This document shows, piece after piece, positions 22,413 to 54,597 of a stretch of 64,000 nucleotides of DNA (positions within the stretch are counted from its first letter, which is position 1; each line of letters starts with the position of its first letter). Origin of the DNA: Catajapyx aquilonaris (taxonomy: Eukaryota); assembly GCA_000934665.2 (NCBI GenBank), contig KZ538113.1, positions 1 through 64,000 of the forward strand, given 5' to 3'. The notes below the pieces were generated by a model that saw nothing but the letters and a program-made list of their open reading frames with translations, did not search any database and was not told the DNA's origin. The position numbers and the translations under genes were made by a program.

Positions 22413-24053
22413 CTGAAATCACAAAAAAAAGGAGGCACATTAGACGTTACAAAAGAAAATTTTCGAGCCAACAACATAAATCACTCCAAATTAAACCACC
22501 CCGTGGCTCAAATGAGACTTAAAAAATTACTCTTTTTTTCCTCTCTCTCTCCCCTGATTTCACTCGTACACAAAAGTCTATAGGGAAAAGCCCCCCCAAA
22601 AAAGTCTGATTTTCTACCCACTCCCTCTGGCTCCGCATTAATTAATTAAAGTGGCAGCGACAACCAGGTAATGAATTTAATCGCCGCCGCCGTTCATTAG
22701 TTCTTCTCTTCGCGCCTGGGACCTTCCCTCCAGTCCGCAGACTCCCAAGCACGAAGAGCTGTCAACATTTGGAGGCTGCCCGAGAGAGCTAGATTCCTTT
22801 TAAACTAGGTCGTGTGTGTATTCAAAGCTTCCCATACATCACTTGGATAGACAAGCTCGAGACGTGTACATATGACAACACCGGCATCTTGTCACGGACC
22901 ACTGACGACGACACCTGATTTTTGCATGACCCAGTAGTACAGACACCGGTACTTCAAAACGTGCGGATTTTCTTCCTGCATTTTTTTTGGCACAGTCCAA
23001 CCTTTCCCTCCCACCCAAAAAAAAACATTTTTTCCTCCCAATCACTCGCGAATTGGACTCAACCCCCGGGGTGTCCCGCTAGATTGGAAGGTGCAAAAAA
23101 AAATTGCGACTGTCCGCCACAGGGTTCGCAATTTGTTCCATCTTTAGTCGCAAAAAAAAAATGAGGACCAAGCTTTCTCTCCAGGCTCCTTATTCCTAGC
23201 AATAAAACCATTCGCAATGCAAAGAAAGCCCCACCCATTAATTACATAGGGTGACGCATAGCCCAAGTCGCAAATTGTTCTCCCTAGCAACCATCTCAAA
23301 GCTGGGAGGCAAGTTGTGTGCTTGAGCAATGAGCCACCCTGCGTTAAAAGTCACCTGAATTCCATGCAGTCAAACAGAGCGAATCTTCATGAACACACTT
23401 GAACTTCTAATTTTTTTAAGCAAAAAGGGGGATTTTGGGCGTGAAATTTTCAAAGGGCGCCTACATTTTTTTTTTAGTCGTCTAACTTTCGCGAGAACCT
23501 GTGAAACCGTGTACAGTATATGTTCAAAACCGTATTAAATTACTCATCAATTATTTTCTACCGCAACTTCCTAGCCCGGCCAGACGAATTAATGGCTGAC
23601 GTCGTTAACCTTTAGTCACGAAAGCTTCCCAGATTTGTTTGAGTAAACAGATTAAGGGCCCGGGGAATTTGATGGCGAGGGGGGGGGGGGGGNCTGGGGG
23701 GGCTTTCTAGTGTTCACAAGACATGCAAATGAGTCCCCGATTACCATGAATAATTATTATAACAATAATGAGGAGGAGGAGGAGGAGGAGGGAAAAAAAT
23801 TGTCCGGTTCTGATTCGTGCAATCACGACACTTTTTGTTTGTTTATTTATTGATTTTTTAAAATTAATATCAAAGGCTTTGTTCTAGTGAAGTCACGCAA
23901 TCATCCGCAGTCAGCATTTCGGCAATTACATAATTTGGTAAAAAGTGAATCGGTCCATTTACTCTCGGAAAATATTTCTCTCGTGCAATTGTGTTCCAAT
24001 TTTTCTATTTATCATTCGTTACTTATCAACTAATTATGTTTCGGTTTATTATA

Positions 24054-24220
24054 CAATTGAATCCGGATATAACAGACTCGAAAGACTGGCTCCCCCCATA
24101 CTTCCATACATGGCCTGTGCATTTGGCTATAACATACCTCGGTTATAACAGTCCCAGTTATAACAGTTACCGTATAACAGTCCGTAGTCCCATGAAGTCT
24201 GTTACATCCATATTCAACTG
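24054..24220. mobile_element. pogo/Tigger-like (Tc1/mariner superfamily) MITE
   Basis: TA|CAATTGAATCCGGATATAACAGAC...GTCTGTTACATCCATATTCAACTG|TA; termini related to 56084-56528. Confidence 0.7.
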
Positions 24221-26113
24221 TACTGCTATATTATTTATTCATTTATTGTTAATTTACTAGCTATTACTTCTATTATTTGTCATATTTAAATTTTCATCAA
24301 CAAACAGTATTTTAACTGACTGTTATGCAGATAGTACAAAAAGGACTGGTCGCCGATTAAGAAAAATGGCCGATTATTACGTATTCACAATGCAGATAGT
24401 TTTAACTGACGTTCGTAAAACGGACTCTTAATTGGTAAAAGATATTGAAAAAGGTGTTCGCCAAATATTGGCAAAACTTTGTTTGGTTACTTAAAATTAG
24501 CACTTTTTATTAAAAGCAAACATGGGGNNNNNNNNNNNNNNNNNGGGGGGGGGGGCAAAATCCAACTGAAACGGACACTTCAACTAGAACAGTGCATTAA
24601 TGTTTTTACCTAATTGCTCACAGTGCGAGGAAAACTATGCGAATATCATCCCCTTGACTCGCAACGGTTTCCAGGTAGCTTCACATCTGGAATAATTCGC
24701 AGGTGAAAATTATTGTCTCGAAGAGAGAAAAAAAAATCCGGTTCTATAATTGAAACCGTTTTTGTACAAATCCGTCGTACAACATCCTCTCGAGATACGC
24801 GGCTAAAAAGCAAGGCTTTACCTCTGTTTCCAGATTCATGATGACATGTCCGCAAATAGCTTAATTCCTCCACGACATATGGAAGGTGACACGCAAACGT
24901 CACTTGTGTTTTACGGCACCCCCGCGGTTTCCATTGGTCACGAAAACCACTGATAAAGAATAAAGGGGGAAAAAAAATAAATCTAGCTGCCTAGATTAGT
25001 TTCCGCAGTTTCTTATTGCACTGCAAAGGTCAACTTCGTTACAATCGATCACATCGTAAGTGCAATTTTCATTCAATGGTCCGAGTAAGATATATCACAC
25101 AATTGCACAAATTACATACCGTGCATGGTATGATTTTCGGCTTATTATCCTTTTAAGTCAGCAACAATCCAAACGTTAATCAATTTTGCACAGCATGTAT
25201 ACTACACAGGGTGGCACACAGCTCACGTTCATAATTTCAACACAGGTTCATTCCTGCACTTAACTGAATACTTGGGGCAATGTACCACCCTGTATATACA
25301 GTCACGACTTTTCATACAGTCGTGCAACATATTGAACCCGACGTATCGACTCACACCACACAAAAGAGCTTAGAAAACACACGCAACCCGCACGCCTTTT
25401 CATTTCCGCAACACCCGTACCACACGACACCTGTCAAGTCCCGCAACAATGTATTAAAAAATCCGCAACAATATTATGGAGAGAAAAAAAAGAAACACTT
25501 TCGATTCCTGCTTTTAACACGTGCACGAAAAAAATAGTTCCGACATGAGGGCGTAGCCCTTTTATTTTATTTTTTATATTGTTTTTTTGTGGTAACAGGA
25601 TACTACTATCCAACAGGTGAAGCTTGGAAATGTCAAGGACCTGAACATTTTTATTTACCACAGGGCTTGAATATTGCAACAAAAGCGACACATTCAGTGT
25701 CCGCCCTAGAGTTCCTCGCTGGACCATTGTTCCTGTCCAGATTTTTTTTTTTTAAGAGGGGGGGTGGAGGGTTGGAGGGGTTCATTTCCGGAGATGTCAT
25801 TTGCATGACACGTCAACCGGATCAGATCTAGGGGGGTCCTCTGGGATCAGATGAATCCTCTGCCTGTGCTTTTCACAATGGCTATATATTACTGAAAGCG
25901 GAATATTAGTCCGCTCTTTTTTCCAGGCAGAGGCCAATCTCCGTTTCCTCACGCAGGTTCGAGCTGTTAAATTGTCACATTCGGGTCAAGGGAAGGCATG
26001 CAACCCATCACTCTCTCGAAAAGGTTAATCCATCTTTACGTCAAGTGTTTTTTTCTTTTCTTTCTTTCTCTCACTTTGCATTTTCTCACCACTCTAACAG
26101 TCCAACAAGGAAC

Positions 26114-26590
26114 AGAAATTCTGCCTGTTACAACAAGCCGAAAGTGTTACGTTATTTGTAGCAGTTATTTCAGTCGGCTTTTGGGGCAGAAAAAAGCGAC
26201 GTGTGAAAATACAAGCTTGGGGCACACATTTCACGACGTGACAAATGTCCTCATATTACCAGCAAAATTTCAGGTGCTGGGAAAGAGCCAGGCTGGTAGA
26301 AATTCTGCCTGTTACAACAATACAAGCATAAAGCTTTTAGGCTATTTGTAGCAGTTATTCCCGCCATATTTCCAGGCTGAAAAAAGCAACGTGTCAAAAA
26401 TACAAGCTTGGGCCACACATTTCATGACTAAATGTCTGATGCATTTAATTAGCAAAATTTCAGATGGGAAATACAGCCTGTTGTAGATTCTGCCTATTAG
26501 AAGAAGCAGAAAGTGTTAGGTTATTTGTAGCAGTTATTCGAGGCTGATTTTTGAGGGCAAAATGGGCAACAATGTCAAAATACAGGCTTG
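26114..26590. repeat. ~185-bp tandem repeat, about 2.5 diverged units
   Basis: aga(a)attctgcct...tatttgtagcagttatt...aatacaagcttgg at ~26114, ~26298 and ~26485. Confidence 0.85.
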
Positions 26591-27298
26591 ACAAGGCATG
26601 ACAAGACGACTGATTGCAAAATTTCACATTAACTAAAACTCAAACAACCCTACTAATATTTCCTGCTTATTGGAACTCAGCTAAAGCAGCTTGCCCTTTC
26701 TTGTTGGATGTCCCTGTGACATGGTGGAAAACGAGCAGATCAATGAGTTCACTCGACATTTTTCAAGCCCAGAACCCGCTTGTTTAAATATGTATGCCTG
26801 ATGGTAATGCAGGCAACGATCCGCCAAATGAAACTGTGAACTTCACTGTAGATGCTGCGGGACTCTATGATTTGCGCACAAAAATTTGGGCAATCACTAA
26901 GTCAAAGGCTCTCAGCTTAATTTTAAATATGCAGCGCGATCCATTGTTATTAATTGCGCCAATAATAATCGACGCTTATTAAGCCTTCTATTAAGCTTCC
27001 ATTAGCATACAGTATATGCAGAAGCGTGATTGAGTAACTCCATCCAAATTAATACAGGTATTGATTCGGTTAATCAGTCCAACATCCATATACCTTATGA
27101 AAGTTACGTCAGGTATTTTATGTAAGACTGTTATTTTATCCAGTAGGATTACGAACACAAAAAAAATCACGAAATAAATAAATAAATCTAAACAGATAAC
27201 GCGTTTGTGCAAAATTAAAAGTAAGCCATCTCTATGCCATCACAAATGGCGTGACGTGATAAAACGAAACCGTCATGAAATAAGAAGACATGTAACAC

Positions 27299-27301
<3 letters not shown>

Positions 27302-27361
<60 letters not shown>
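27302..27361. repeat. (TC)n microsatellite
   Basis: Pure TC run of about 60 bp. Confidence 0.95.
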
Positions 27362-27364
<3 letters not shown>

Positions 27365-30300
27365 CCATTTCGCATATTTCCTCGAAGCTCCGCCAAAATT
27401 CACGCTACCATATTTAAAATCCAGCCGTAATTTTTCTGCAATAAAAAACCACCAAAAACATCTGAATACTTGGCTTATAAAAATGTCAGCGGCTCAGCCT
27501 GTTCTTTTCAAGTCTGGGGAAAAAAAATATCTATAGACTAATAGGCTCCGAATCTATGTTTGTATATATCAATATTCCTACATTAATTTTGCGTGTACAA
27601 GACCAAAGTTGCAAATGCTCCATTTTTTGACTGAAACAGGAACACTGGCTGCAGAAAGACCAAAAAAGCCAGCCCTCCTTTTTCCACCTATGCAACCAGG
27701 TGCATCGACACCTCCCCCCCCCCCCCNNNNNNNNNNNNNNNNNNNNNNNNCCCACCCCCGCAATACACAATTTCTGGTACAACACAACGGAAACGGTGAG
27801 CTCACTCCCCCCTCGGACCAGCAGGTGAGCCCCCCCTCTCACTAAAACGAGTGACGCCCCATTCAGTACGAAGGGAATCCTCCGCCAGTGAACAGGTTGC
27901 TCACCTCACAGCAAGAAAAACCATGGATTGTTTGTGCCTCTGACTCACCCAGTAAGTACATCCGATCAATGTTCATTTACCTCAAACTCCATATTTAAAC
28001 GATGCGTCTAATGTTTATGAATATCGAGTGATGGTGCTGTGTGTACTTTGTAATCACAAGTGAAAGAATAGTTTTGGAAGCCTTTTAGTAGTGCTTCTAA
28101 AAATCATTGAACCGTGAGTAGGATTCATGCCCTTTCACATGAATGTTAATGCAGGGCTCTAGTGCGCTGGTTTTTTTTTTGTGAGTGAGTGCGTGGAGTT
28201 ACGCCCTGAATAGTGCTTCAGTTGAACGTGGAAAATTATCCATGCAGTGATGCCTGGAGAAATCAAGTACGAACAAGTGGATAATTTTAGTGATGGTTGC
28301 AACCAAATACAGTATGGTGCATTGATGATAATATTTCCATAGCCTTCTGATGTTGCTCCAGTTTACCTATAGTCATGTTATTATAACCCGGGCCAACTGT
28401 CAAACTTCACAGAAAATATTGTGCTAAAAATGTACTCAAAAATGAATCACAAACTGCTGGGATTGTTCGGCCCAGCAACCAGTTTGGAAATCAACCAGTG
28501 AATGTGGCCTTGTTGATTCTGAAGTAAACAACAAACAAATTTTTTCCCTTGAAAACTGGTGACAATGATCATTCTTTCCCTCAGATTTCTCTCGACACTA
28601 TTCCGACAGTTTCACAGTTAATTCCTCGGTTAATTCCGGTATTTTGAACAAAACGTGAGTGAAACTCTTTCCCCCCCAAAATTTATACAAAAATTAGTCC
28701 CTAATTTTCAACCAATATTCACTGTATACTGGTTGTTTGCCCCCAGCAACACCCTCAATCATGGCTTCATTTGTGGTAACTGATTCACTGTAAACTGGTT
28801 GACTGTAGATCTGGGCTACATAACCGACCAAAAAAACTGTCCCATACATTCAGGCAAAATCAGGTCCCTCTAGGCCTACAATGTACTATTTAAAAAAAAA
28901 AGTTCCATACATTCGGCCAATTGAAGCCAGCAAACGTTTTTCCACGACTGTAAAAGGCCTACTTTTTCCTCCCACAACCTGTAATTTTCCGCCATAAAAA
29001 TCATAATAAAAGCTCGCTGTTTTTTTTATATATGCCTCCAACTCTCTTTCCCTATATAGTTGGCAAAAGAATGCAAGGGAGTCAGTCACAAACATTTTCA
29101 TTCCTATAATCGGGGTGCCGCACCATTCCTTCGGCCTGCTAACACAACAATCTCTCAATAGCCACATATCAGATGCAAGTCACGCGACTTTGAATCCCAC
29201 AAAAAAATTGTCGAATGAATAAAGAAGGGAGGGCAAGCCATATTATACGAGGCATGTGATATGTATTTTTTTTTAATGTATTGTCACGCCCTTACAATTA
29301 AGGAGGTCGGAACCTGGCGGTCCTTTTTTTTTTTCTCCTTCTCGGGCGGTGGAACTTTCGGTACGACACACATTCCTTTGCTTCCTCGACCTTAACTCTT
29401 CCCCAAGAACTTTCTCCAAGGACCACCCCCGTTTTGTTCTACACTACAGGAACAAAAGTATGTGACGCGGCGCCGTGGTTTGTTTGAAAAAGCTAGTTAC
29501 AGGTGACCGTGTCGGGTAGGCCAAGGGTGTGCTACAAAATATTGGTCGCACAAAATCTACACAAAAACTATTCGGATTTGCACTCCTTTTTAACATAGCT
29601 AAATCCTGTACTTTTAATAAAATTGCGGACTACAAGTAAAAAGTATGAAGTGCAAATTTTTGCATTAAGATTCGACCCCTGTTACAGCTCAGCTATCACC
29701 ACTATTTACCGGTGCTTACATAATTACCATCGCAACAATTTTAAAAATATACAGTAGCCTATCTTAGAAATCACGCACGTTATATCCAGTAGCTAACTAC
29801 CGGTATTGGTACCGGTTTTTTTTTTCTCTCTCTCTCTCTCTCATAATTTCGCCACGTCAAGTGAAAGGCGGGTACATGCATGGCATTTTGAAATATGTAT
29901 ATAATGTAACAGCGTTCTGGTATGTTTATGTCCCCTTGAGCTCGAGCCTTATCGAGGATGCATTAGCAGGAAGGCTCTTCCTTCTAAAGAGGGCCAACAA
30001 CTTAACCTGCAATTTGGCGTCCATTACCAGGGGGGGTTCGGAAGGAAGGTTATTCCCTAGAGAAAGATGCTCCATGAAAACAAGAGGTTAAAACCTATCG
30101 TCGCCATTATCTGGGAACGTCAAGGCCTGGATGCCATCAAATGTCTTGGCTGATTCCATAAAATGATACAAAGTTTTGATACATTACGAAACACCCTGTA
30201 TGTCTCAAAATAGAGGAAAACTGAAAACACGGAAACACAGTTTGATGGGGTTAATCGGTGCTAAAGAGAGCGTGCTGATCCGATGTTGCAACAGCCGCAA

Positions 30301-36300: not shown

Positions 36301-36869
36301 CTGTATAACGTGTGGGAACATCATGCGGGGGAGCCTTATTGTACTTGTAATTCCGGCACACGGATGAGTAGGCGCTCAATGACCGTAAAATATGCAAATC
36401 ATAATTATGATATTTAGGGGGAGCATCTTGGCACATCTCCCGTCGAGCGTAACACACAATTAAGTACAGGCCAGTCAAAAAAAATACGACGGAAATGACA
36501 AGAATTGAATGCAAAATTTCAAAATTCGCTCAATATTCGTTCTTAAAAACCTGCAATTTTACAGAGGAAATTTTAAATGCCATAAATTAGCACACAGGAT
36601 GGTCCAACATGTTCGATTGCTATAGAACAATATTTCGCCCTAGTTGATGATGATGAAGTTAAATATTAAAGCAGTTTAGTGTAATAAATCACTGTATCAA
36701 CCTGACAAATATTTATCATCACCCTGCATAAATAAAATCAATTACAGATCAAATAAAATAAATTCTCGTAGGCTAAATCAAATCAATCGTGAAATAATAA
36801 AAATGAAACAAATGAAACAAATAACAGAATTATTTTATTTTTGTTTAATGTATTATTTAATAATAACGG

Positions 36870-40100: not shown

Positions 40101-43100
40101 TTAGTGCGGGTATCCTCTCAAGGCATTGGAGAAACCTTGTACTTGAGAGTCCGCTTTTGAAAGCACCAAACCCATACCCACTTCCAGAAACTTGCACTTG
40201 CCAAGCCAAATTGCTCCAGTCTCCGAAAGTCTCAAAATGTAATAACCTAATTCCTGCAGAAATTTCCCCTCCCCCCAGTCAGTCCTGGAGTAAGTTTCTA
40301 CCCTCACGGACACACACCTTTACTCGAATCCCATCCAACAGAGACGCCAATCAGGGGAAAGGATATATGCTATCATTTGAGACTTCCCCACCAATATACG
40401 GATGCAAATATTTCCTATTTGCACACTAAGCTTATTTCGAGATTCCCGCAGACTCCAGATTGGATCCGCAACTTGCGCAATTCCAACACTATTATGTAAA
40501 CACTGCGTCAAATCGTATCTTCCTGCTCTGTTATTCAAGGTGCTGTCCTGTGCGACAGACGTGGACACGACTTTCCCACAGTAGATATTGGCACAAATTT
40601 TTTTTGTCGAAAAGTTACCTAGGGAGGGAAGGAAAAATAAAATGGCGAGAGATTTTTTTTTTTCTGTCTCTTTCTAAACGAGGTCGAACGAGTTGCGTCG
40701 AGCGTGACGGACTAGCAGTTCATCATTGTTGCTGCCGCTGGGATCCTCTTTTGCTGGTTTTCGGGAGAGGTAGGGATGTCACTACCACTCTCTCTCCGGC
40801 TTGGAAATGGAGCGCGGTATCATAATGTGGAGGGAAGGTCGTCGCGGTGGGGACAAACATGGCTGCCCCCAATGTATTTTTTTCTCTCTCTCTCTCTGAG
40901 GGTTAAATGGAGAAGCTGAGCAGATGTAATCAGCTTCTGTCGCGGCTTGTCAGTTGAAGGCAGCTTGATCCGGACTAAAAATGGCGGCGCTGTATCCACG
41001 TGACCTACTTCATTAAAATGGGACGGGAGTATTTTTAGAGCCAATTATCTCGGTAACGAAGCGGCGTGTGTCAAATGATATCTCTACATAAAGCGATCCT
41101 CTGGCTCAGACGAGTCCGATCGGTTAGTTGGCATCATTATGGAACACCCTGCATCGTACAGTACATGGGATATTTGCGCAACTGCAATCTTACATGCAGG
41201 ATTCCCTTGCTATAGCTAACGAAGGTTCCGGGATAAGCGAGGATGAAGCATAATCAGTTCCTATTGTACCCAATCGGCCGGAAGTCGGCATGAACATGAA
41301 TCGAAGGCTGCAGGGGTTGCAGAAGCGTATCATCGGAAATGCTTGCAAAATGAAGCGAGGTGCCAAATAATGAAGGACAAACATGCCTCCCCCCTGCATC
41401 TCTCGGGAGCGCTGCTTTTCTTTGCTTGACGCCGTTGACGGATGACGGAGAAGCAAACATAATCAGCAGCACATTGTGTTGCTACTGTATACGACCCACA
41501 AGCTGCGGAAGTCTTCAAGGGCCTTTTCGGCAGCAAAAGAGGCGACTATGGGAACACACGGCTTGCACGATCTAAAAATATTTGAATATTAGGCCAAGCC
41601 ACTTCCTTATCTGCAGAGCTGTAACACACGGGTGCGAAATGCTTCCTGGGACAAACAACACACTCGGTTGCATGTGCGAAAATCTATTCTAGGTCGGAAA
41701 AGATAAGCGTCTCATGACAACGTAGCCAAGGTGCTTCTCTGCAAGGCCTTTTGTCACTTGCAACAGAAGCCGGATATACTCGAGACCACGAAAAAAGTAA
41801 CGATATTTCTTATGTTTCAATTGAGCTGGGTTCACACCGAGGTCGTTGTTTTTGGGGGCAGTGTATGATTTATCTCACTGTCATCCCTAGAAACTTGACG
41901 TGCCTCGTACTTGTCACCCAGTAATAATCCTCAGACGTTGCTCTCGGCATTAATATAACCCAGTCGCACGGGGGGCTGTCAGGTGAGCAGAATAGAGCAG
42001 GACGACACCCCAATAGCCGGGTATTGTCTCTTCCAACAAAGTAATGAGTCACACGGGGCGTTGGCCTCTTTTTCGAAAACGCTCAGTGGTGCATTTTGTC
42101 TCCGAACAATAGGTCCTGCACCGATGTTACTCCCGAAATTTTACTCTCTCGGTTTAATGTACGGATCGACTTTCTTTTCCAGCATCACTTTCCCTTCATC
42201 AGACTGTTGGGAGGGCGATACATCCTGTGCCTCATCATCATCATGTTTCGCAGGCGAATCCGAACCGCTCGCCCATAAATAATACTCTATCAAAGATGAA
42301 ACCTAATTACGGCCAGAGCACCAATCCGCGCCTCCCATGCCAGCCATTATTAGGAAAAAGCGGTTCGTTGTACAATTTCCGGCTTGGCTAATCAAGGACG
42401 GCAGGGTAAAGTCAACACACACCTTGTGAAACGGGGATGCCCCCTCTAAAAATTGCAATTTCTGATCGCAGTCTTGGAGCCATGACAGCTACTTAACCAC
42501 TTGTTAAGCTAACGGCCGTTTAAACGAGCTTAAATGGTTCCTAGCCTACATTTTGCAAAATCATGTAAAAAATGTCCGTATTTTAAAATTACTTTCGGTG
42601 TTGTTTGTTTGAAAAAATACCTATTAGTTTTCCAGCTATGGGCTATCCATAAGATAATATTAATTACCGTATACGTTATCGTCCTGCCCTCTGACGTCAC
42701 TGTTCCCAAACAGATCAGCGCAGAGGCAGGAACGCACCCGAGCTGCTTTGTTTCTTTCTTTGTTACCGACGAATTGAATGACCGCCAGTAAAGCGGGTGG
42801 ACCAGTCTGTTTACGTCACTATCGTGCTAACTATCATCGGGCAGGAGTCGGAATGCGTCCTAGGCCACGCCCTCTTTTTTCGAGCCAATTTGAAATTGAC
42901 TTATCCCTCGATAATTTAGCGAGGAATGATATTTGGGTACTGAAAAGTGGTGGAAATTCCCAAATCCCAGACGAAGGCTCGGACCCCACTGTTGGAAAAT
43001 GTGGCAAGCCGAGCAGCTGCCCTAAACTGTCATGGCGGCCAGCAGTGTTGCCAGATGCGCACATCAGAGTTACCAGACTGCATAGCACTGTTGCCAGATG

Positions 43101-43243
43101 TGTTAGGCAAGGTCGGATGTGTCAGCTTCCTGCAGCAGCCTCCTTGATTTTTATGTATTTCAAGCGCGATTTTTCCCCTTCAGATTGCAGTCACCAGTGG
43201 GCAACCAAGCCTGTCCTCTCCTGCCTGTACCGGTACCCAAGTC

Positions 43244-43479
43244 ATGGCCAGAGGCCGTCTGAGGCGTGGTTGTAGCCTGGAGGTCATCCTGGAGGAAGAC
43301 GGCGATATGCCCGGCCACATGCACCGGACTCACTCTGTGGACTCCCTGGACTCGCTGGAGTACACGGTGTCGGAACACAACGCGTCTCCTCTCTGGCGGA
43401 TCCGGATCGACGACGACCGTCGCGACGCCGACGCCGGAGGAAGACGCGCTCGCAGCCTGGATTGGCTCATATGCAACGG
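43244..43479 (+). CDS. jv: Nested gene, coding exon 1 (MARGRLRRGCSLEVILEEDGD...RSLDWLICNG); probable javelin homologue, identity tentative
   Basis: GC-rich coding-like segment. Acceptor tttttccccttcag just upstream (43183), gtcATGg start, donor GG|GTACGT in phase 2 matching the next exon. Confidence refers to coding status; the name rests on recalled Drosophila MCU/jv linkage. Confidence 0.75.
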
Positions 43480-45766: not shown

Positions 45767-46043
45767 AGACATGGACGTGAACTACTCCCCATGGGACCTG
45801 AATGGAAGCAGCTATGAGGAAGAGCTGGATGTGGACATAACTCCTGACGACTCAACCAACTGCTCCGTCAGTCCAAGGCTGGAGGAGGACAGTCCGGCCA
45901 CCAGGGCCAGGATCAGCAGGAGGCAGATCGCCAGCACCTGGAGCGACAGGGACTCGCCCTGGTTCATGGACCAGGCCAGCATCAACAACGGAGAGTCTGA
46001 AGACGGGACAGACGGAGACGTCACTTTGTCCACCATACAACAG
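45767..46043 (+). CDS. jv: Nested gene, coding exon 2 (DMDVNYSPWDLNGSSYEEELDVD...DVTLSTIQQ); probable javelin homologue, identity tentative
   Basis: Acceptor cactctctcgacag, phase-2 start completes GGA, open acidic frame, donor CAG|GTACAC in phase 0; 277 nt. Confidence 0.8.
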
Positions 46044-46083
46044 GTACACGCACTTGATTAAATTGGGCGCCTCTGGGAATAAG

Positions 46084-46225
46084 CGATGGGGGTCAAACGC
46101 ACTCGCGCATGCGCATACCAGTCCAGCCTAGACCTACTGCGCATGCGCATTATGTTCATTTGAAGATCCTGATGTGTAGGCTGAACTGATGTGCGCATGC
46201 GCAACAGGACGAATCTTCCTCCATG
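46084..46225. mobile_element. Palindromic element carrying three GCGCATGCGCA motifs
   Basis: gcgcatgcgcataccagtccagccta versus taggctgaactgatgtgcgcatgcgc; motifs at ~46105, ~46138 and ~46192. Confidence 0.55.
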
Positions 46226-47689
46226 TTTAACCCAGCCCCATTGCGATTGGGCACATAAACTGAACCGGATCTAGACCCGATCCACTATTTGGTTGCATTA
46301 ACATGGCACAACGTTCAGCCCATGCTCCGGTAGTGGCACGTTTACAGATTAACTAATTGCATTTTTTAAATTACTCCAATTACGAGTAATTTTATAATGT
46401 CCATTGCATTTCAATTTCATGAACGCAATAGTCGGAATTTACGTAGGCCCTACTTTTATTTTAATAATAGCTTCCTATAATTAATCGTTTTCACAATTAA
46501 TTGCTTTGGAAGTTACAATTTACGGGAATGAAAATAACTACTGTGCTAATAACATTGAACTTTTGTGCTATGCCAATTAGTCCGGATATAGCTAACCTAG
46601 TGATACAATTCGACCACCTCATTACATGTCAACATAAAGGATATCCGATGGAGAAACAAACAGTAACAAATACTCAACTGTGCCAACAGAATCAATCAAA
46701 GCCGACATCTAATTAATCAAGGTTGCCAATACTGTACGGAGCAATAATCCAACAGTGGTCCTGCTGTATAGACATGATTTCAGAGAGCTTGTTTTCAGTG
46801 ACCCGATTTAGTTGGGGGAGATGTCAAACTTGGGTAGCGTACCACCCTGTGTACGTAGCGTGCAAAGAGATGTATGTTTGTTAATAAGCTTGCATGTCGC
46901 GCACGTCCGGGTCATACGCAAGGTTCCGGAGGTGTGAAAGCGACGCGTCTTGATGAAGATGGGTCAGTAGAGCACGCGTCAGGGTGAGGTTCACGTCACA
47001 CCTCGCACATATCCCGGATTTTGAGAATAATTTATTTACTCTTACGAATAACAACAACAACAACAACCGTCATCGCCATCATCAGAAGACAATTCCATAC
47101 CCATTTGCTTCATATAGCAATTTTTCGGTCGTTTTTTGTGTCTTGAAGCCAACTGAAAAATGGCAATCGATAGTCATAACCCCGAACTTCACTTTTTTTT
47201 CCATCTCACCCATTATTCAAAAGAAGCCTGTAATAAAATTATTATACCGAGAGGCCATGGGTGAAGTGACCCCTTGGACAGGGTCCTTTTGACCCCCTCC
47301 TCTGTAAATTAAATTAGCGACGGACCACGTACCTCTTAATACGCTGAACTTGAGCAATGTCCAGCCTGCCCGTGCAGGTAAAAGCTTCCCTAATTACCCT
47401 CAGAGTCAGGTGCACACACACATGCATATGCACGCTCGTTCGCACTGCCAAAAATGGGGAGCGTATTTCCACTTGAAACGATCCAACCTGCTCCTAAAAT
47501 TCGTACCACATTCTGAAGCTTTTTTGTTGTACACTACTAGTACGAATATGTAGCTATATTTTAAATATCAATATTAAATGTAAAAATTTCTGTAAGCTGT
47601 TTCTTATCGTTGGACTGACCTGTATTAAAATATTCATACGATTAATTGGCTGTCTTTCTGCTTGTCCGGGGTGAGTCATCGCGGGCATT

Positions 47690-47760
47690 TAGTACTACTA
47701 TCCCTCATACGACCCTGTGAGTGGCAGTAGTGCGCCATCTACGTTATGGATATGGTACTA
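47690..47760. mobile_element. ~70-bp mini inverted-repeat element, copy 2
   Basis: tagtactactatccctcatacgaccctg...gcgccatcta...ggatatggtacta; matches 2571-2640. Confidence 0.6.
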
Positions 47761-47867
47761 GGTAGACAGCCCCGGGCAGTTGTTCACTAGTTGTATCTAT
47801 TTGATTAATTTTATAAGTGCTATTGCGTCAAGGTCATAAACTAAAGTGTATCCCAATTTCCTTCCAG

Positions 47868-49328
47868 GTAAAGAGCATGTTCGAGGAGCGCGTGCGACGC
47901 AACCAGCAGAAGATGGCCAGCTGTCGTCACGGCTCCTTGGAGCGGTCCCGGAGCCAGAACAGCAATCCGGTACCCTCGGTGCACTACTTGGCAGACTACG
48001 ACATACCGGACCTGCTCCTGAACAACAACGTGGTCATAGTGGAGTCACGACCTTCCAGCAAATCGGGAGGGAACCAGAACAAACCCGTGTCAGTGGGCGG
48101 GTTCTGGCCTCCTCCGGGTATCAACCAAGTGTTTCGGGTCACCAAAAAGTCAGGGGACGGCACCGCTGATGGGGCAAAGACAGTACCCAGAACTGTTGGG
48201 TGGCGTCCGACTCGTTTACGGAACAAGGAGCTGGTGGACACCGAGCTGCCCAAACCGGATACGGTCAAGAAAGTACGGAGTGTGTTTGAGAAGACTCTGG
48301 TGTTTGACCGCAAGATGGACGGAGGAGAGGATAAGATGACCGCGGTCAAGTCTAATCCACGGAGCAAGATCCTCAGGTCCGATTCGTTCGAGCGACGAGG
48401 CAGACCAGTGGTGTCCAAGCACAAGTTCGCGACCATACACAACATGATAAGCCAGATCAAGCCGAGGCATCCGCAACAGCTGTATGTCAAAGTGGTCAAT
48501 GGCGACAAGCCTAAAGTTAATAAGGAAGAACCGCCGGAGGTGATCACAGTCGCGGTCAACCCTCCTAATGGTTACAAAGCACCGCCGCCGCCTCTGTCCA
48601 AGACAAGCAGCTGTCCGTCGCTGGTCAACAAGCCTCGAAGCAGATACCATAAGCGACAAACTGCTCCTCCGGTGACAAAGCCGCCACGTAAGGAAGAGTC
48701 AGACGAAGAAGACGACATAATGGACGAGGACGACATGCCAAAGTACATACCAAGAGAGGTCATGGAGCGGATCAGAGCATGCGGTACGTCCATAACATAT
48801 TTCGGCGGACAGGTCGTCTCAGCGGCCACCAAATCGCCGTTGAAGACCTTGGACATAGTCGCTGAGATTCACAAGGGCAGCACGACCCTTCCGATACGGA
48901 AGAACAACCACAACAACAACCAGAACATCCGCGATAATCTGAACAACATCCTGAACAACTATGCGACCTTACCGCGATCCGAGGTCAGCACTCCAAGGAT
49001 CGTGTCGGTCGTGCCCAAGTCCAGGTCGCGACAAGTGGCCTCCATACGTCCCACAGGTTTCAGCGACTCGGAGGACGACTCCAGCCAAAGTCCTGAAAGA
49101 TTCTCCTCATCTCCGTCCCCAGCCTTTTCCTCATCCTCCTCGTCCTCTCCGACCCTCAGGGATCGACCAACCCAGGACAGTAATCACAGGGCAAACATGG
49201 CCCCCAAATTCGGACAGCACTCCGTTACGTTCAATTTCACCGGCATCTCCTCTTCCATCAAGCCCCACGTGCCTCAGAGGAACTCGGAGGAAGACGAGTA
49301 CGGGCATGTGGAAGAAGCCTGGTTCTGA
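47868..49328 (+). CDS. jv: Nested gene, last coding exon (VKSMFEERV...EEAWF*), largely disordered protein; probable javelin (actin-associated) homologue, identity tentative
   Basis: Longest ORF in the window, with coding-like composition. Acceptor aatttccttccag in phase 0. Conserved-looking islands ELPKPDTVKKVRSVFE, PKYIPREVMERIRACGTSITYFGG and HSVTFNF. Spliced total is 1974 nt = 657 aa plus stop. Confidence 0.88.
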   Translation, partial: VKSMFEERVRRNQQKMASCRHGSLERSRSQNSNPVPSVHYLADYDIPDLLLNNNVVIVESRPSSKSGGNQNKPVSVGGFWPPPGINQVFRVTKKSGDGTADGAKTVPRTVGWRPTRLRNKELVDTELPKPDTVKKVRSVFEKTLVFDRKMDGGEDKMTAVKSNPRSKILRSDSFERRGRPVVSKHKFATIHNMISQIKPRHPQQLYVKVVNGDKPKVNKEEPPEVITVAVNPPNGYKAPPPPLSKTSSCPSLVNKPRSRYHKRQTAPPVTKPPRKEESDEEDDIMDEDDMPKYIPREVMERIRACGTSITYFGGQVVSAATKSPLKTLDIVAEIHKGSTTLPIRKNNHNNNQNIRDNLNNILNNYATLPRSEVSTPRIVSVVPKSRSRQVASIRPTGFSDSEDDSSQSPERFSSSPSPAFSSSSSSSPTLRDRPTQDSNHRANMAPKFGQHSVTFNFTGISSSIKPHVPQRNSEEDEYGHVEEAWF

Positions 49329-49698
49329 GAGCAAAAGACTACTGTTAATAAGTCAACAGCAGACGGGCTTTTTGGTGGACGGAAATGACTTAAAAGGAGG
49401 CCTGGACTGGTGGTGGAAAATTTGTAAGCAAACAGAATCAAACGGTGTGATGCTACTGTGGTTATATACTGTAATTATCAGGGAGGGGGGGGGGGGAGGG
49501 TTAATTGCAGATAAATCGTTGAGCCAATACGACAACAGTGACTAATATGAACAATGTACCAACTAAAAGGCACGAGGAATTTCATTAAAAAACTGAGCTT
49601 TAATATTGGTTCCGCGCTATGTCCATATTAAAAAGCGGCTCCATGTCTTTAGACTTCCCCCCCCCCCTCCCCCATTTAAAAATATGTGAAAATCAAAC

Positions 49699-50348
49699 AA
49701 TAAAAAAATGAGCAAGCCCACTCGTACCCGTTATGTTCCTTTAGTCGACTTGCACCCTCCAAACCCGACAAGAATATTGCAAGCCTTCAAGCACTTTCCG
49801 CTACAGCCTCCGGGCCCTTTTGCAAAGTCTCCGGAAAACTTTTGCAACTCATTAGCACAGCGACAAAAGAGCAAGAGGGAGAGAGAGAGAGAGAGAGAGA
49901 AAACTAAACATTCCTCAGAGAACTTCATGTGGTTATAAGGAGACAGCGAAGAAGAAAAGTAAGTTGAAAAAAAATAAAATTTGTTATCCTTTTTCATGAG
50001 GTCGGGTCTGCTTCACAATCTTGAAGGAAGAATCAGACCTACTCGCGCCAAATTATCGCCTCTTTTAATAATAGACCTTGCTCCATATATTTCGAGACAA
50101 TTTGAGCCTTTTTCTGCGAAGCGAGACAGTAAGTGCTGCAATATTCCAAGATTTCGTGTCTACATTTGGTGTGAACTTTTTTGTTCCAATTCTTACAGGT
50201 ACATCGTGGCAACTTCCCTTGAATATTACGACGTAAAATGGAATGGCTTTTAACTATATTTCTTTAAAAAAAAATGTAGACAATGTATCAACAACACTCA
50301 GAACCTCATATTTGCAAGGAACAAATTCATGTAATAGCTAACAATAAA
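49699..50348 (+). terminator. Candidate polyadenylation signals of the nested gene
   Basis: AATAAA at 49699, 49973 and 50343 downstream of the stop at 49328; which is used cannot be told from sequence. Confidence 0.3.
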
Positions 50349-51830
50349 TCCATTGGCATACACTGTAAACCGGAAAAATATATTAAAAGAGCATCATTGG
50401 TGAGTCTTTAATGCTCTTGCGATGCTTTGTGGCTCAACAAAAAACAAAGCACCAAAAACTTGTAATGTTTTTCGGTTTACAGTTTAGATGTTAGCAATTG
50501 ATAAGCTGTTCCAAAGCACGAGAAGAAAATGCAAGGTTGGTTGCCTAGAATCAGGATAACAGTCATGCCTGTCCTACATTTCGCAACCATTTCGCTAAAA
50601 TTTTCAGTTGTACAGTACCACACATCTCCAGCAGCTGATAAAATAATAAGAAAATACACCGCACACTTTAGCTAACTTTTGTCTTTACAAAGAAGCAGAC
50701 TGTGCTTTCATGAATATTTCCCGCACACCCTTTTGTTCACACGAAGTTAGGAATAGACAATTAAATTTTCAATTTAGCATCGTACACTGTAACCAGTCCT
50801 GGGTACACCCATTTTTTGTGAAAACTTGCGCATAAACAAGCCGCAATTTAAACCCGGAGCCGACTATACCGACAACAAAAGCGGCTCCCGTAACAACACC
50901 CCCCCACATTTATGTAATTGATAATGTCAACGTGTGCTGAATGTGCAGCGCCAAATGTCATCAGCCTAATTCACACCCCTCTAACTAGTGCTTGCTCTTC
51001 TTGGATGTTATTTTTCGTCACTAATGGTGGCCCCACGCTGCAATCGACCAGGTGAAAAAAAAAGAGATGCTGCTGGACCACTCCGCCAGCAAATGTCATG
51101 GCCGATTTTTTTTTAGTCAGCAAGTTTCTCTCCCAGGCCGACTTTCTTCGTCGGAGTGTCGCTCGGTACATATCGAAATTCCGATCATGTGTGCCCCAGC
51201 ACCGTGTGGATATCGCCAAATTGGGAGGACCCCTGCAGCACTGTGGGCGTCACTCGTGCGCTTCCACAAAAAAAAAAAAAAAAAACGACGTCGATATCCT
51301 AGCCAGTGAGATATATTCGCAAGAATGCTATGTGAGGAGAGAATAAAAGCGCCAATTTTCCGCTCCTTATCACTGACGTTACTACCGTAAACCAGATTTT
51401 CAGCCTCATTTCTATCACAATCTCCAGGAAAAACTGACGTTCAATTTCTCCTTCGTGTCTGTCCAACTCCGCCATTTTTTTTTTGTGTGTGTGTGGCACT
51501 GGAAGATTGGAACGTCAACCGACAAATCAGCGGAAAAGTGCACGAAAATGAAGCGCTCCAACAATAGGATATCAAATTAATATACAGGCGCCGACCGCCA
51601 CGCTCCATTTGTAACAGGTGCGTGTCAATGATAATAGTGCAGGAAATGTTGATATAGCTATACGGCGAAAATAATGGAGCTTTCCAAAGACAAGGACAGT
51701 CAAATAAATGTACTGAGATGCAATAAATTCAAAAATTGTGATGCAGTTCAAACAGTTTGAGTAATAAATGTACACAAAGTCTGCCATTTTGACACTTTCT
51801 GAAAGACACAATTTTGGCCAACACATTTTG

Positions 51831-51867
<37 letters not shown>

Positions 51868-53425
51868 AAAACGCAAACTTCTCATAACAATCCTGCCCGA
51901 AAGGTATCAAAGTAATGTCAATTTCTCTCCTCTTCATCATTGCTTCTGACCAACTGCTACTAGACAACGCATCTGTCGTGTCTCCATCTGTGTGACCTCA
52001 TAAGCCATCCATCACACTTTTCCTATACTGTGTCAGGCTGTTGCATCAGCCCAATATGACATCAGCTCCTTGCTGTTACGTCCACACACAAAAAAATGAA
52101 TCAGCTTTTGTACACATCCATCACATAAGCTTCTGGGGCAATACAATTTTATCCAATGACTCCCCCATCTGATCCCGCCAGTATTAAATTCGTGCAACAG
52201 CTCGACTCTATAAGCTTTTTTTTACGTCCTTATAATCCTCTTAAAAATATTGAGGTCGTCGACCGCCCCCCCCCCCCCCCCANCCCCCCCCAATATAGAA
52301 ACGACAACATGCGTGTGTACCCTTTTTCTATTCTCCTCGCAAAGATCTATCCGCAAGACCAGGTCCGCTTGCTGCGATCCTATTTTCCTCCATGAAAGGG
52401 AAGTCTCTTGCGTTAAAAAATTCAGCGGATCTCCCAGCCGCACAGCTGCTATATATAGGAGAAGATCGCCCTGGAAAAGCAGCCTCTCTATTCTGTCTTT
52501 TGAGACCGATGGAGCAAGACGTGCGCCGGGAGGCAAATTCAAGATGAAGGGACCAAGGAAGCCACGGAAGAAAAAAAAAAAGTCCGCAAAATTTTTGTAC
52601 CCGATACAAGCAGGACCTGCGTGTGAGGCATACTCCTTGCATTATACAGGGTGTTGCAAAAAAAATGCCGACACCGGATGTACAGTTTGCAAAAGTCTCC
52701 ATCGATATGACAGAACACAGGGCTCCACTTTGAGCTGTCTAGACTGGAATCAATGAGAGAATATTGCAGTCGGCTGGGTCAAAGTTTGCCGTCTGTCAAA
52801 ATGCCGGCTGCAAACACTGGCAGAATCATTACGCTCGACTATTTCGGACTATTTCGTTACAACCCAGCAGCACAGCGCTATTTCCGGGACAACTATTTTG
52901 GCAAGTGTTTCCTCTGAGTGAAAAGCACTGGCTTTCTACACCGAGCACAATTTGCACAACAAACCTAAACGATTCATCTTGCTCGAGAAATCCTCTTTTT
53001 TATATAGAGATTCCCTTTCCCTCTCTCAGGCTTTTCTAATCGATTCCGTTGCAAAAACAACATGCAATTCAATATCTGCGCCCCCACCCCCCCAACCCAA
53101 CATCCTATCCCACCCTCTATACCCGCCCACAACCTTCTATTTTTTCCCACATATATATGCTAGATTTGTGCGGTCGAGTTTCGGTTAGTATACCCCCCGC
53201 AGGAAAGAGTATACAGTCGCTCCGATTCTATATCAAATAACAAGGTGTACCAAAAAAAGAGTTGGCTAAATTCGCAACAGATGTAGGAAACATTTTTACA
53301 GCACTTAGTTAGTCACATTATTTGTCGATGGATACACTTAAACTAACTGAAACTAACTAATATATTCTTATATATGCACACGGCTCGTAGACTGAATAGG
53401 AATCTATTAAATTACTAGCACGGGT

Positions 53426-53971
53426 ATTGTGCTGAATACAGTCCAATTGAAGGATTTGACCTGGCCAAAATTACTGTGTCTACAGTATATCAAAGGCAAA
53501 GTTTGTGTGTTTGTCCCCATTATACCCATTTTATTCGCATTTAATACCAATGTTATACCATTTCAATTACAGTATATGAAATTTCGCATATTAAATTTAT
53601 TAATTAAATGATAAAATTTCATATCTGAAATGAGTATAAAATAGGTACGGTATACAGGGTGGTCCAAGTTCAAGTGTCGTTTTATAACGGCGATTAATAG
53701 CAGTGATTTTGCGATGACGTAGCAGCGACGCGTAAAATGTCCCACGTCGGCGCATCTTCGGCGCAATCGAAGTGGGCAATATTACACGTCGCTGCTACGT
53801 CATCGTTAAGCGCTTCTATTAATCGCCGTTATAAAACGACACTTGAACTTGGACCACCCTGTATAATGTGAACAAACAAACTTTGCATTTTACTCGTATA
53901 TACATGTAGGAAATATTTTTTCCGCTATGATTTTTGGTCGGATCTTTTCATTGGACTGTATTCAGCACAAT
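53426..53971. mobile_element. Older inverted-repeat element hosting a younger MITE
   Basis: attgtgctgaatacagtccaat...attggactgtattcagcacaat termini, plus an inner inverted match gcaaagtttg / caaactttgc. Confidence 0.65.
53655..53861. mobile_element. Palindromic mariner-like MITE
   Basis: TA|CAGGGTGGTCCAAGTTCAAGTGTCGTTTTATAACGGCGATTAATAG and its exact reverse complement ending CACCCTG|TA. Confidence 0.9.
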
Positions 53972-54402
53972 TTGCAGACTGTGCCAAGTTCTTTGAAATT
54001 TGCTAACCGACTTACACAAAATAGTTGCCTTTCGGGAATTAACTTTCTGTAAGCTGAACTGTAGGAAGCTACTTGGGCCAATTAGTGTGTCTCGAAAACA
54101 AACAAAACTTCTGTGTCATCTCTCACCCCTAAAGAGGTCACGAGCTTTTCGGTACACTGTGTTATGATGCGGGATGAAAAATGGTCTGATTGGTGGGTTG
54201 TCAGCACTAATGGATCCTGCGGATTACCAAAGTCCCCAGACCGAATGCGGGCCTCCAAAAAAAAAAAATGGCAAAAGGGGATTAAAACTAGTGATGTTTT
54301 TGTGCGGTTTTGGCTTGATGCTGGCCATGCTGGGTGAGATGGAATGTCCTCAGGGTAGAGAGGGCTAAATCCGACATTTTTGGGGCCCTCGACATGACTT
54401 AC

Positions 54403-54526: not shown

Positions 54527-54597
54527 CTGAATAAACGGAAATGGATTATGTAGATGTAGACCAGAGGATTACAGCATACACGTGCTCTAGGTAGCTA

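What the first reader, a model, noticed from the sequence alone, without database searches (positions are those of the whole stretch)
22413..54402. Complete antisense gene nested in a 32-kb MCU intron; probable conserved MCU/javelin arrangement
Seen: MCU exons flank this interval with matching phase 1, and inside it three plus-strand exons splice in phases 2 and 0 into a 657-aa ORF. Recalled knowledge, to be verified: in Drosophila, javelin (jv, an actin-associated bristle gene) lies at the MCU locus on 3L. Inference: this is the jv orthologue, much shorter than the fly protein as I recall it. If so, the nested architecture is ancient and may explain why one intron of a housekeeping mitochondrial gene is so large, with possible transcriptional interference between the two genes.
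Basis: partly seen in the sequence, partly recalled or inferred. Interest (0 to 1): 0.75.

Follow-up and report, generated by a model that had tools for sequence, protein, structure and literature searches.

The report
Javelin gene inside an MCU intron
A short crustacean-type relative of the fly bristle-actin gene javelin lies backwards inside what is probably a 32-kb intron of the mitochondrial calcium channel gene MCU; this is a tidy but ordinary nested gene pair.

Summary
The plus-strand gene is real. Three exons (43244-43479, 45767-46043, 47868-49328) splice in phases 2 and 0 into a 657-aa ORF.

It belongs to the javelin family. Exon 3 finds 94 relatives at E<=1e-3. They include proteins named javelin from Anabrus, Anastrepha, Papilio, Agrilus and Drosophila willistoni. 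Exons 1 and 2 carry motifs shared with Daphnia magna and with a metagenome contig.

MCU is real on the minus strand, with four homology-mapped exons from 22412 down to 18446.

Nesting rests on one upstream exon, 54403-54526. Points for it:
- a GTAAGT donor;
- the right phase, with a G that rebuilds the conserved Glu;
- an almost unique GC peak.

Points against it:
- no in-frame ATG;
- no significant similarity to MCU presequences;
- no RNA evidence.

I put nesting at about 0.7.

MCU-javelin linkage is older than this genome. A Drosophila paper calls the two genes neighbours (PMC6506686). In Agrilus both proteins are recorded on a 1,678,871-bp scaffold. Whether nesting itself is conserved could not be tested.

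This is an ordinary nested gene pair of low interest.

The parts
43244..43479 (+). javelin-like gene, coding exon 1 (start codon; 78 codons plus 2 bases)
   Evidence: ATG and GTACGT donor. The N-terminal motif GRLRRGCSLEVILEED matches residues 2-17 of Daphnia magna isoform X1 (12/16, E 4e-5). It also matches L001 3981-4067 (62% over 28 aa; read). GC is 0.64 against 0.42-0.43 in the introns.
45767..46043 (+). javelin-like gene, coding exon 2
   Evidence: Splice sites and phases fit. The motif RISRRQI is colinear with RLSRRQI in Daphnia (weak, E 0.2) and RVSRRQI in the L001 ORF 5173-5673. GC 0.58.
47868..49328 (+). javelin-like gene, coding exon 3 (486 codons plus stop); holds every family-wide conserved block
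   Evidence: phmmer gave 94 hits at E<=1e-3, best 2.2e-16. Names were looked up. The C-terminal ...EEAWF aligns with ...GAWF ends of relatives.
47979..48305 (+). conserved block A (exon-3 residues 38-146): NNNVVI.E... and ELPKPDTVKKVRSVFE
   Evidence: Invariant columns E126, P128, P130, V133, F140 in 72 sequences. Predicted helix 130-149 with pLDDT 90-96.
48693..48911 (+). conserved block B (exon-3 residues 276-348): ...ERIRACGTSITYFGG...
   Evidence: Near-invariant I302, R303, G306, T310, G313, G314. Predicted helix, hairpin, helix over 296-336, with 10-residue-block mean pLDDT 65-82.
22413..54402 (-). putative MCU intron of 31,990 bases that would contain the javelin-like gene
   Evidence: Bounded by the acceptor at 22413/22412 and the donor at 54403/54402. 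Length. Its status as a single intron is inferred.
54403..54526 (-). putative MCU presequence exon (internal as read; no in-frame ATG)
   Evidence: It is the only one of 5 minus-strand GTAAGT sites in 22413-64000 with at least 35 open codons in the phase-1 frame and a leftover G. GC is 0.637; only 3.3e-5 of other non-exonic 124-base windows reach this. A pyrimidine-rich acceptor ...tttattcag precedes it. Similarity to MCU presequences is not significant.
22242..22412 (-). MCU exon, start of the N-terminal domain (EVTVVYFRGLPQ...)
   Evidence: tblastn with 7 arthropod MCU proteins, E 1e-19 to 5e-25. Boundaries.
21111..21376 (-). MCU exon
   Evidence: Pfam PF04678 at 40.1 bits, above the 30.8 cut-off. 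tblastn E about 1e-32 to 2e-38. Boundaries.
19961..20164 (-). MCU exon with the transmembrane helices and the WDIMEP pore motif
   Evidence: tblastn E 1e-33 to 1e-38. Translation read.
18446..18715 (-). MCU last coding exon with stop
   Evidence: Pfam MCU C-terminal part, E 2.1e-5, below the cut-off on its own. tblastn E 1e-21 to 2e-27. Boundaries.
63485..63574 (-). speculative MCU first coding exon (ATG, 30 codons, weak donor CAA|GTGTGG, phase 0)
   Evidence: Tied for best of 894 ATG-started ORFs of at least 20 codons in Smith-Waterman score against 6 MCU N-termini. Random ORFs score nearly as high, so this is not significant. It would give a 374-aa MCU, against 375-396 aa for six of the seven relatives used. 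GC in 100-base windows is 0.46-0.58 around 63400-63900.

Best explanation
The window holds two ordinary protein-coding genes of an arthropod, probably a non-insect crustacean.

On the minus strand is MCU, the pore subunit of the mitochondrial calcium uniporter. Its conserved exons lie at 22.4-18.4 kb.

On the plus strand is a complete three-exon orthologue of javelin (43.2-49.3 kb). It is the short 'crustacean type' of the family: a mostly disordered protein carrying a few short conserved helices and motifs. In Drosophila the family member associates with actin bundles in bristles.

Most likely MCU transcription starts above 54.5 kb. An exon at 54526-54403, encoding the basic, acid-poor presequence, is then spliced to 22412. 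The javelin gene would thus sit antisense inside a 32-kb 5' intron of MCU.

Shown: both gene identities, the javelin gene model and the MCU exons from 22412 down.
Inferred: the 54403 exon, and hence the nesting.
Shown from a paper and from scaffold lengths: MCU and jv are linked in a fly and a beetle as well.
Not shown: any functional coupling between the two genes.
For: Javelin identity:
- The 657-aa ORF is confirmed.
- Exon 3 gives 94 hits at E<=1e-3 and 20 at E<=1e-10.
- Of 30 representatives looked up, 9 clusters hold a protein named javelin. These include Drosophila willistoni (P0066, E 7.5e-7), Anabrus (1.5e-14), Papilio (1.4e-9) and Agrilus (1.0e-4).
- A family profile recovers 361 proteins at E<=1e-5, many named javelin.
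- The motifs of exons 1 and 2 and the C-terminus are shared with Daphnia and with metagenome relatives.

MCU: Pfam PF04678 lies above its cut-off. Four exons were mapped with 7 arthropod MCU proteins. Exons from 54526 to 18446 splice in frame into 344 codons.

Upstream exon:
- It is the only GTAAGT site of 5 with at least 35 open codons in the phase-1 frame and a leftover G, and one of 2 among 11 GTRAGT sites.
- GC is 0.637; outside the listed exons only one other place in the window reaches that.
- Its first 24 residues hold no acid and 4 Arg.
- No candidate below 43 kb has a GTRAG donor together with a leftover G.
- tblastn hits of MCU N-termini in 22.4-43 kb carry stops or lack a start.

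Linkage elsewhere:
- PMC6506686 calls jv a neighbouring gene of MCU.
- Agrilus planipennis javelin and MCU are each recorded on a contig of 1,678,871 bases.
- Anabrus simplex javelin and MCU are each on one of 1,806,822,858 bases.
Against: - The phase-matching frame of the 54403 exon has no ATG. The ATG at 54521 is out of frame.
- No convincing first exon was found upstream. The candidate at 63574 is not statistically distinguishable from random ORFs and has a weak donor.
- Similarity of the exon to MCU presequences is weak. Smith-Waterman ranks are 4, 10, 13, 63, 6 and 60 of 3285 ORF pieces. tblastn gave nothing at E<5. Two presequence profiles gave E 28, and E 170 at rank 295 of 2478.
- An alternative ATG-started mini-exon (42483-42423, 20 codons, donor AAG|GTGTGT, leftover G) exists 0.8 kb from the javelin start. 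It would make the genes head-to-head neighbours.
- In Diploptera punctata, javelin and MCU are recorded on contigs of different length, 3,102,874 and 2,014,808 bases; both models are partial.
- The papers say 'neighbouring', not nested.
Confidence: 0.7

Rival explanations
1. The two genes are head-to-head neighbours and not nested. MCU's real first coding exon lies between 22.4 and 43.2 kb, for example the ATG at 42483, and shares a divergent promoter region with javelin.
For: The mini-exon 42483-42423 has an ATG, 20 codons with 1 acidic and 3 basic residues, a donor AAG|GTGTGT and a leftover G that would also give Glu. GC is raised across 40-44 kb, at 0.47-0.50. The exon at 54403 lacks an in-frame start.
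Against: A presequence of 20 residues is far shorter than the 66-92 residues before the conserved EVTV/DVTV motif in the seven arthropod relatives used. GC of this piece is 0.475, not a peak. Four such ATG-to-donor pieces with a basic start occur in the 41.6 kb scanned, so it is what chance gives. It has no GTRAG donor.
Confidence: 0.15
2. The genes are nested, but through a different 5' exon. The piece at 54403-54526 would be a chance match or belong to something else, and the true MCU 5' exon(s) would lie elsewhere above 49.3 kb or beyond the window's end.
For: There is no in-frame ATG, no significant presequence homology and no convincing exon 1 inside the window.
Against: The coincidence of a consensus donor, the right phase, a leftover G and a near-unique GC peak is hard to get by chance. 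No other candidate above 49.3 kb looks like a presequence; 55161 and 58788 are acidic or hydrophobic.
Confidence: 0.12
3. The javelin-like ORF is a decaying or unexpressed copy and not a working gene.
For: No RNA evidence could be obtained. Outside the conserved blocks the protein is low-complexity and predicted disordered.
Against: The 657-codon frame is intact across three exons with canonical splice sites. All invariant family residues are present. The N-terminal and C-terminal motifs are kept. Exon GC of 0.55-0.64 stands out from intron GC of 0.42-0.43, as in the MCU exons.
Confidence: 0.03

Closest known systems
Drosophila Javelin (Jv), an actin-associated bristle protein (Shapira et al. 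2011, not held and known only as cited; Jv described in PMC8070096, passages seen)
   Same: Same protein family. Drosophila-genus Javelin proteins are hit directly: D. willistoni at E 7.5e-7 and D. ironensis at 2.3e-6. They share block A (ELPxPDTVKxVRxxFE) and block B (IRxCGTxxTYxGG). The gene also neighbours MCU in the fly (PMC6506686).
   Different: 657 aa against 1912 aa (PMC8070096). The window protein lacks the insect motifs KSNSCxSRLELxGT and MEFEEFEV. It has instead VKSNPxSKILRSxS, TPRIxSVxPK and a C-terminal AWF. No actin data exist for the short form. The fly coiled-coil domain (aa 759-832) was not located here.
Daphnia magna LOC116921197 (uncharacterized protein, isoforms of 607-681 aa) and unnamed metagenome relatives (P0016, P0019, P0049; locus L001)
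   Same: Same short architecture. It shares the N-terminal GRLRRGxSLEVIxE(D/E) motif (Daphnia; L001 reads GQLRRG...), then R(L/I/V)SRRQI, block A, VKSNPSSKILRSES, block B and (Q/T)PRI(V/I)..(L/V)PK, all colinear.
   Different: Only 23-32% identity overall. The Daphnia C-terminus differs (...SPMYV). Genomic context relative to MCU is unknown for Daphnia. L001 holds no MCU hit in its 20.6 kb, but only 3.98 kb lie upstream of its exon 1.
Intronic nested genes of arthropods (host and guest on opposite strands), a common arrangement in Drosophila (general knowledge, recalled)
   Same: A complete gene would lie on the opposite strand between two exons of a host gene, inside a long 5' intron.
   Different: Here the upstream host exon is inferred and not shown. 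No transcript data exist.
MCU (Pfam PF04678), pore subunit of the mitochondrial calcium uniporter
   Same: The domain lies above the Pfam cut-off. The WDIMEP pore motif is present. Identity to arthropod MCU proteins over the 109-aa query exon is 59-78%.
   Different: The 5' end and targeting sequence are not settled in this window.

Membership tests
Javelin protein family (no Pfam model) | Significant sequence similarity to proteins annotated Javelin, including the genus Drosophila | tested here: met
   phmmer gave 94 hits at E<=1e-3. Anabrus 'protein javelin' scored 1.5e-14, D. willistoni 'Protein javelin' 7.5e-7, Agrilus 1.0e-4. D. melanogaster Jv itself was not among the looked-up hits.
Javelin protein family (no Pfam model) | Block A motif ELPxPDTVKxVRxxFE with invariant E, P, P, V, F | tested here: met
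   E126, P128, P130, V133 and F140 are invariant in 72 aligned sequences, and the window has all of them.
Javelin protein family (no Pfam model) | Block B motif (E/Q)(K/R)IRxCGTxxTY(Y/F)GG | tested here: met
   I302, R303, G306, T310, G313 and G314 are at least 90% conserved, and the window has them.
Javelin protein family (no Pfam model) | Insect-type C-terminal motifs KSNSCxSRLELxGT and MEFEEFEV | tested here: not met
   Absent from the window protein. In the 22-sequence alignment they are also absent from Daphnia, P0016, P0019, P0041, P0049 and P0067, and from two short sequences, P0013 and P0015. They appear to mark the insect subgroup and not the whole family.
Javelin protein family (no Pfam model) | Coiled-coil domain (fly residues 759-832, PMC8070096) | tested here: inconclusive
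   The AlphaFold model shows helices only at 2-18, 130-149, 296-304 and 325-336, with mean pLDDT 55.6. No coiled-coil predictor was run, and the fly domain was not aligned.
Javelin protein family (no Pfam model) | Association with F-actin bundles | not testable with these tools
   Needs cell biology or biochemistry.
MCU (PF04678) | Pfam MCU domain above the gathering score | tested here: met
   40.1 bits against a 30.8 cut-off on exon 21111-21376 alone.
MCU (PF04678) | Pore motif W-D-I-M-E-P between two transmembrane helices | tested here: met
   Read in the translation of exon 19961-20164. That this motif defines the pore is recalled knowledge.
MCU (PF04678) | N-terminal mitochondrial targeting sequence with a start codon | tested here: inconclusive
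   The candidate exon 54403-54526 is basic and acid-free at its start but has no in-frame ATG. The exon 1 candidate at 63574 is not significant.
Nested (intronic) host-guest gene pair | The guest gene lies wholly between two exons of one host transcript | tested here: inconclusive
   The lower host exon is proven by homology. The upper host exon is inferred from splice signals, phase and GC. No transcript evidence exists.
Nested (intronic) host-guest gene pair | Host and guest on opposite strands | tested here: met
   Javelin is on the plus strand and MCU on the minus strand.

The most novel reading that the evidence does not exclude
MCU and javelin form a host-guest pair kept since before insects and this crustacean-type lineage split. 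The antisense guest in the 5' intron would be retained because transcription of one gene tunes the other, tying mitochondrial calcium uptake to actin-bundle building in the same cells.
Probability: 0.1. Interest if true: 0.5.

Novelty: new member of a known kind. Interest (0 to 1): 0.25.

Why it matters
The main value is for annotation. The work gives a supported gene model for a short, crustacean-type javelin. The family has no Pfam model or solved structure, and its conserved motifs are now listed.

It also flags that the 5' end of MCU in this assembly needs transcript data.

The MCU-jv linkage seen in a fly (paper), a beetle (same scaffold length) and this genome is a small, checkable case of long-kept microsynteny. 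If the nested form proves to be shared, it would be a usable example for studying how nested antisense genes persist. It does not open a long-standing question.

Tried and rejected
- RNA evidence: the look-up of sequencing runs on 47000-56000, kind rna.
- Whole genome: none is held for this window.
- Earlier scan notes: nothing relevant in four look-ups.
- Search for the MCU 5' end by homology:
  - tblastn with 7 MCU proteins gave no N-terminal hit better than E 0.049. That hit lies on the wrong strand, and the next best has an internal stop.
  - A profile of the first 55 residues gave E 28 for the 54403 exon ORF.
  - A profile of the presequences from residue 26 gave rank 295 of 2478, E 170.
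  - Single-exon ATG-to-phase-1-donor candidates: 19 found, 4 with a basic start, none convincing.
  - ATG-to-phase-0-donor candidates above 54530: the script counted 6 (5 printed), none like an MCU start.
- Synteny in another crustacean-type genome: the metagenome scan gave 7 loci. Only L001 is long (20.6 kb), and it has no MCU hit at E<=5 worth noting. The window's candidate MCU exons find nothing there either. The rest of that contig could not be reached. This is uninformative and does not count against nesting.
- Function of the javelin blocks:
  - Pfam gave 0 families for the three exon peptides at E<=1.
  - Pfam on 22 family members gave only one stray Bet_v_1 hit.
  - A PDB profile search gave 0 hits at E<=1.
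  - The AlphaFold model is mostly disordered (pTM 0.26), so no fold search was run.
  - The ESM Atlas ranked a 'protein javelin' cluster first at 0.85, which is only a lead.
- Other genes in the window: 103 ORFs of at least 95 aa gave no Pfam hit except MCU. There were no Rfam families and no tRNAs.
- Papers: the 2011 javelin paper is not held by DOI or PMC id. 'CG32397', a gene number I recalled, is in no held paper. 'javelin' with 'sulfateless' finds only the MCU paper and its preprint. Their supplementary figures on jv expression were not opened.
Full report
**What is in the sequence**

- Exon 1 runs 43244-43479. It has an ATG, and its donor GG|GTACGT carries two bases over.
- Exon 2 runs 45767-46043. 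Its acceptor is ...cgacag|A and its donor CAG|GTACAC is in phase 0.
- Exon 3 runs 47868-49325, followed by a stop at 49326-49328.
- Spliced, they give 657 codons before the first stop.
- Exon GC is 0.64, 0.58 and 0.55. The two introns have 0.43 and 0.42, and the rest of the host interval has 0.42.

**What the plus-strand gene is**

Pfam finds nothing in any of the three exons at E<=1.

A full HMMER scan of 1.84 billion representative proteins with exon 3 found 94 proteins at E<=1e-3. Of these, 20 were at E<=1e-10 and none at E<=1e-30.

I looked up 30 of these representatives, and 9 clusters contain a protein that a source names javelin:
- Anabrus simplex, E 1.5e-14
- Anastrepha ludens, 1.4e-9
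- Papilio machaon, 1.4e-9
- Drosophila willistoni, 7.5e-7
- Episyrphus balteatus
- Periplaneta americana
- Hermetia illucens
- Polistes fuscatus
- Agrilus planipennis, 1.0e-4

The others are unnamed, 'hypothetical' or 'uncharacterized'. One Polistes dominula record in a javelin cluster carries an unrelated automatic name.

A profile of 18 family members recovered 361 proteins at E<=1e-5 among 7,998 scored candidates. Many of the 120 listed are named javelin: Anopheles, Lutzomyia, Phlebotomus, Aedes, Tribolium, Zophobas, Anoplophora, Leptinotarsa, Onthophagus. The javelin assignment is therefore sound.

Homology is confined to two blocks of exon 3:
- Block A, residues 38-146: NNNVVI.E, then ELPKPDTVKKVRSVFE.
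- Block B, residues 276-348: ERIRACGTSITYFGG.

**The gene model beyond exon 3**

- Exon 1 starts with GRLRRGCSLEVILEED. This matches residues 2-17 of Daphnia magna isoform X1 (12 of 16, E 4e-5). It also matches an ATG-started exon about 5.8 kb upstream of the main javelin exon in metagenome locus L001 (62% over 28 residues).
- Exon 2 carries RISRRQI. This is colinear with RLSRRQI in Daphnia and RVSRRQI in L001. The match is weak on its own, E 0.2.
- The C-terminus ...EEAWF aligns with ...GAWF ends in three unnamed relatives.

The window protein shares VKSNPxSKILRSxS and TPRIxSVxPK with Daphnia and these aquatic-metagenome relatives. It lacks the insect motifs KSNSCxSRLELxGT and MEFEEFEV. It is therefore a short, crustacean-type javelin of 657 aa. 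The fly protein has 1912 aa (PMC8070096, passages seen).

An AlphaFold model built on 72 sequences is mostly disordered (mean pLDDT 55.6, pTM 0.26). The confident parts (10-residue-block mean pLDDT above 70) are short:
- helix 2-18;
- helix 130-149, which is the PDTVKKVRSVFE motif (pLDDT 90-96);
- most of a helix-hairpin-helix at 296-336, where block means are 65-82.

No PDB sequence matches the family profile at E<=1.

How it works is therefore inferred, not shown. It is probably a disordered scaffold whose short conserved helices are binding sites. In Drosophila the protein decorates and lengthens actin bundles (PMC8070096, abstract and passages seen).

**The minus-strand gene**

MCU is certain.
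- Seven arthropod MCU proteins map by tblastn to four exons, with E-values from 1e-19 to 1e-38.
- With splice sites, the exons are 22412-22242, 21376-21111, 20164-19961 and 18715-18446.
- Pfam PF04678 scores 40.1 bits on one exon alone, against a cut-off of 30.8.
- The WDIMEP motif is present.
- The exon at 22412 begins with AA and needs one base from the preceding exon.

**Is javelin nested?**

This depends on whether 54403-54526 is an MCU exon.

Evidence for the exon:
- The donor is GTG|GTAAGT.
- In one frame the exon is open for 55 codons and leaves a single G. G plus AA rebuilds the Glu of the conserved G-E-V-T-V start of the domain.
- Five GTAAGT sites lie on the minus strand between 22413 and 64000. 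Only this one has at least 35 open codons in that phase and a leftover G. Among 11 GTRAGT sites it is one of two; among 44 GTRAG sites, one of four.
- Its GC is 0.637. Only 3.3e-5 of the other non-exonic 124-base windows reach that value, all at one place, 10213-10339. The GC peak sits exactly on the exon.
- Its first 24 residues have no acidic residue and four arginines.
- It is preceded by a pyrimidine-rich acceptor.
- Spliced to the four mapped exons it gives an open 344-codon frame.

Evidence against the exon:
- That frame has no ATG.
- The ATG at 54521 is in another frame and would end in TGA at the junction. So one of two things must hold. Either a further upstream coding exon exists, or the assembly is one base off just after that ATG. 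The window has several small N runs.
- The best upstream candidate has an ATG at 63574, 30 codons and a weak donor CAA|GTGTGG. It would give a 374-aa MCU, in line with relatives of 375-396 aa. However, its score against MCU N-termini is matched by obviously random ORFs.
- Similarity of the 54403 exon to MCU presequences is not significant. Smith-Waterman ranks are 4, 10, 13, 63, 6 and 60 of 3285. tblastn finds nothing. Profile E-values are 28 and 170.
- No RNA run could be listed, so nothing could be checked against transcripts.

The rival is an MCU start below 43 kb. It has one candidate, 42483-42423: 20 codons with a basic start. It is the kind of piece chance gives four times in this interval, it has no GC peak, and it would make an unusually short presequence.

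I put nesting through the 54403 exon at about 0.7. Nesting through some other upstream exon gets about 0.12, and head-to-head neighbours about 0.15.

**Is the arrangement conserved?**

[quoted passage not shown] It does not say nested.
- In Agrilus planipennis the javelin protein and the MCU protein are each recorded on a contig of 1,678,871 bases, almost certainly the same scaffold.
- In Anabrus simplex both are on a contig of 1,806,822,858 bases. This is a whole chromosome, so the evidence is weak.
- In Diploptera punctata they are on contigs of different length, and both models are partial.
- The one long crustacean-type contig I could fetch (L001) shows the same javelin 5' exon pattern but no MCU within the 20.6 kb held. 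Only 3.98 kb of that lies on the side where the conserved MCU exons would be expected.

Linkage is therefore old. Whether nesting is old is untested.

**Verdict**

The nesting is probable but unproven.

The wider ideas remain speculation:
- That the guest gene explains the intron's size. The javelin coding span is 6,085 of 31,990 bases.
- That the two genes interfere in transcription.

Nested antisense genes in long 5' introns are commonplace in arthropods (general knowledge), so this is an ordinary arrangement and of low interest. The useful by-products are a supported model and motif map for a short javelin subfamily, and a flag on the unresolved 5' end of MCU.

Noticed in passing
window 54519-54521 (minus strand): An ATG sits inside the candidate MCU exon, one base out of the MCU frame. 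As read it opens a 39-codon frame that would end in TGA at the 54403/22412 junction. A one-base length difference just after it would make it the MCU start. So it is either an upstream mini-ORF or an assembly indel.
   Followed up: partly
window 21468-22160: A 42-base tandem repeat with 16.7 copies and 80% matches fills most of the MCU intron between exons 22242 and 21376. It creates several spurious ORFs of about 100 codons on both strands.
   Followed up: partly
window 5362-5928: A 19-base tandem repeat with about 30 copies, downstream of MCU.
   Followed up: no
window 994-1304 and 11002-11295: A fold-back element (arms 994-1114 and 1184-1304, 93% complementary) has a second copy 10 kb away at 95% identity. 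It is probably a small mobile element.
   Followed up: no
window 10213-10339: This is the only non-exonic place in the window, besides the candidate MCU exon, where a 124-base window reaches GC 0.637. The ORFs there are low-complexity.
   Followed up: no
L001 3981-4067, 5173-5673, 9851-11158: The unnamed metagenome contig carries a javelin relative whose database gene call (436 aa) covers only the last exon. The conserved first exon and an RVSRRQI exon lie 5.8 and 4.2-4.7 kb upstream, so that protein record is probably truncated.
   Followed up: partly
window 1494-1499, 23693, 24528-24544, 27727-27750, 52283: Small runs of N (1-24 bases) mark assembly gaps or masked bases, three of them inside the putative MCU intron.
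   Followed up: no
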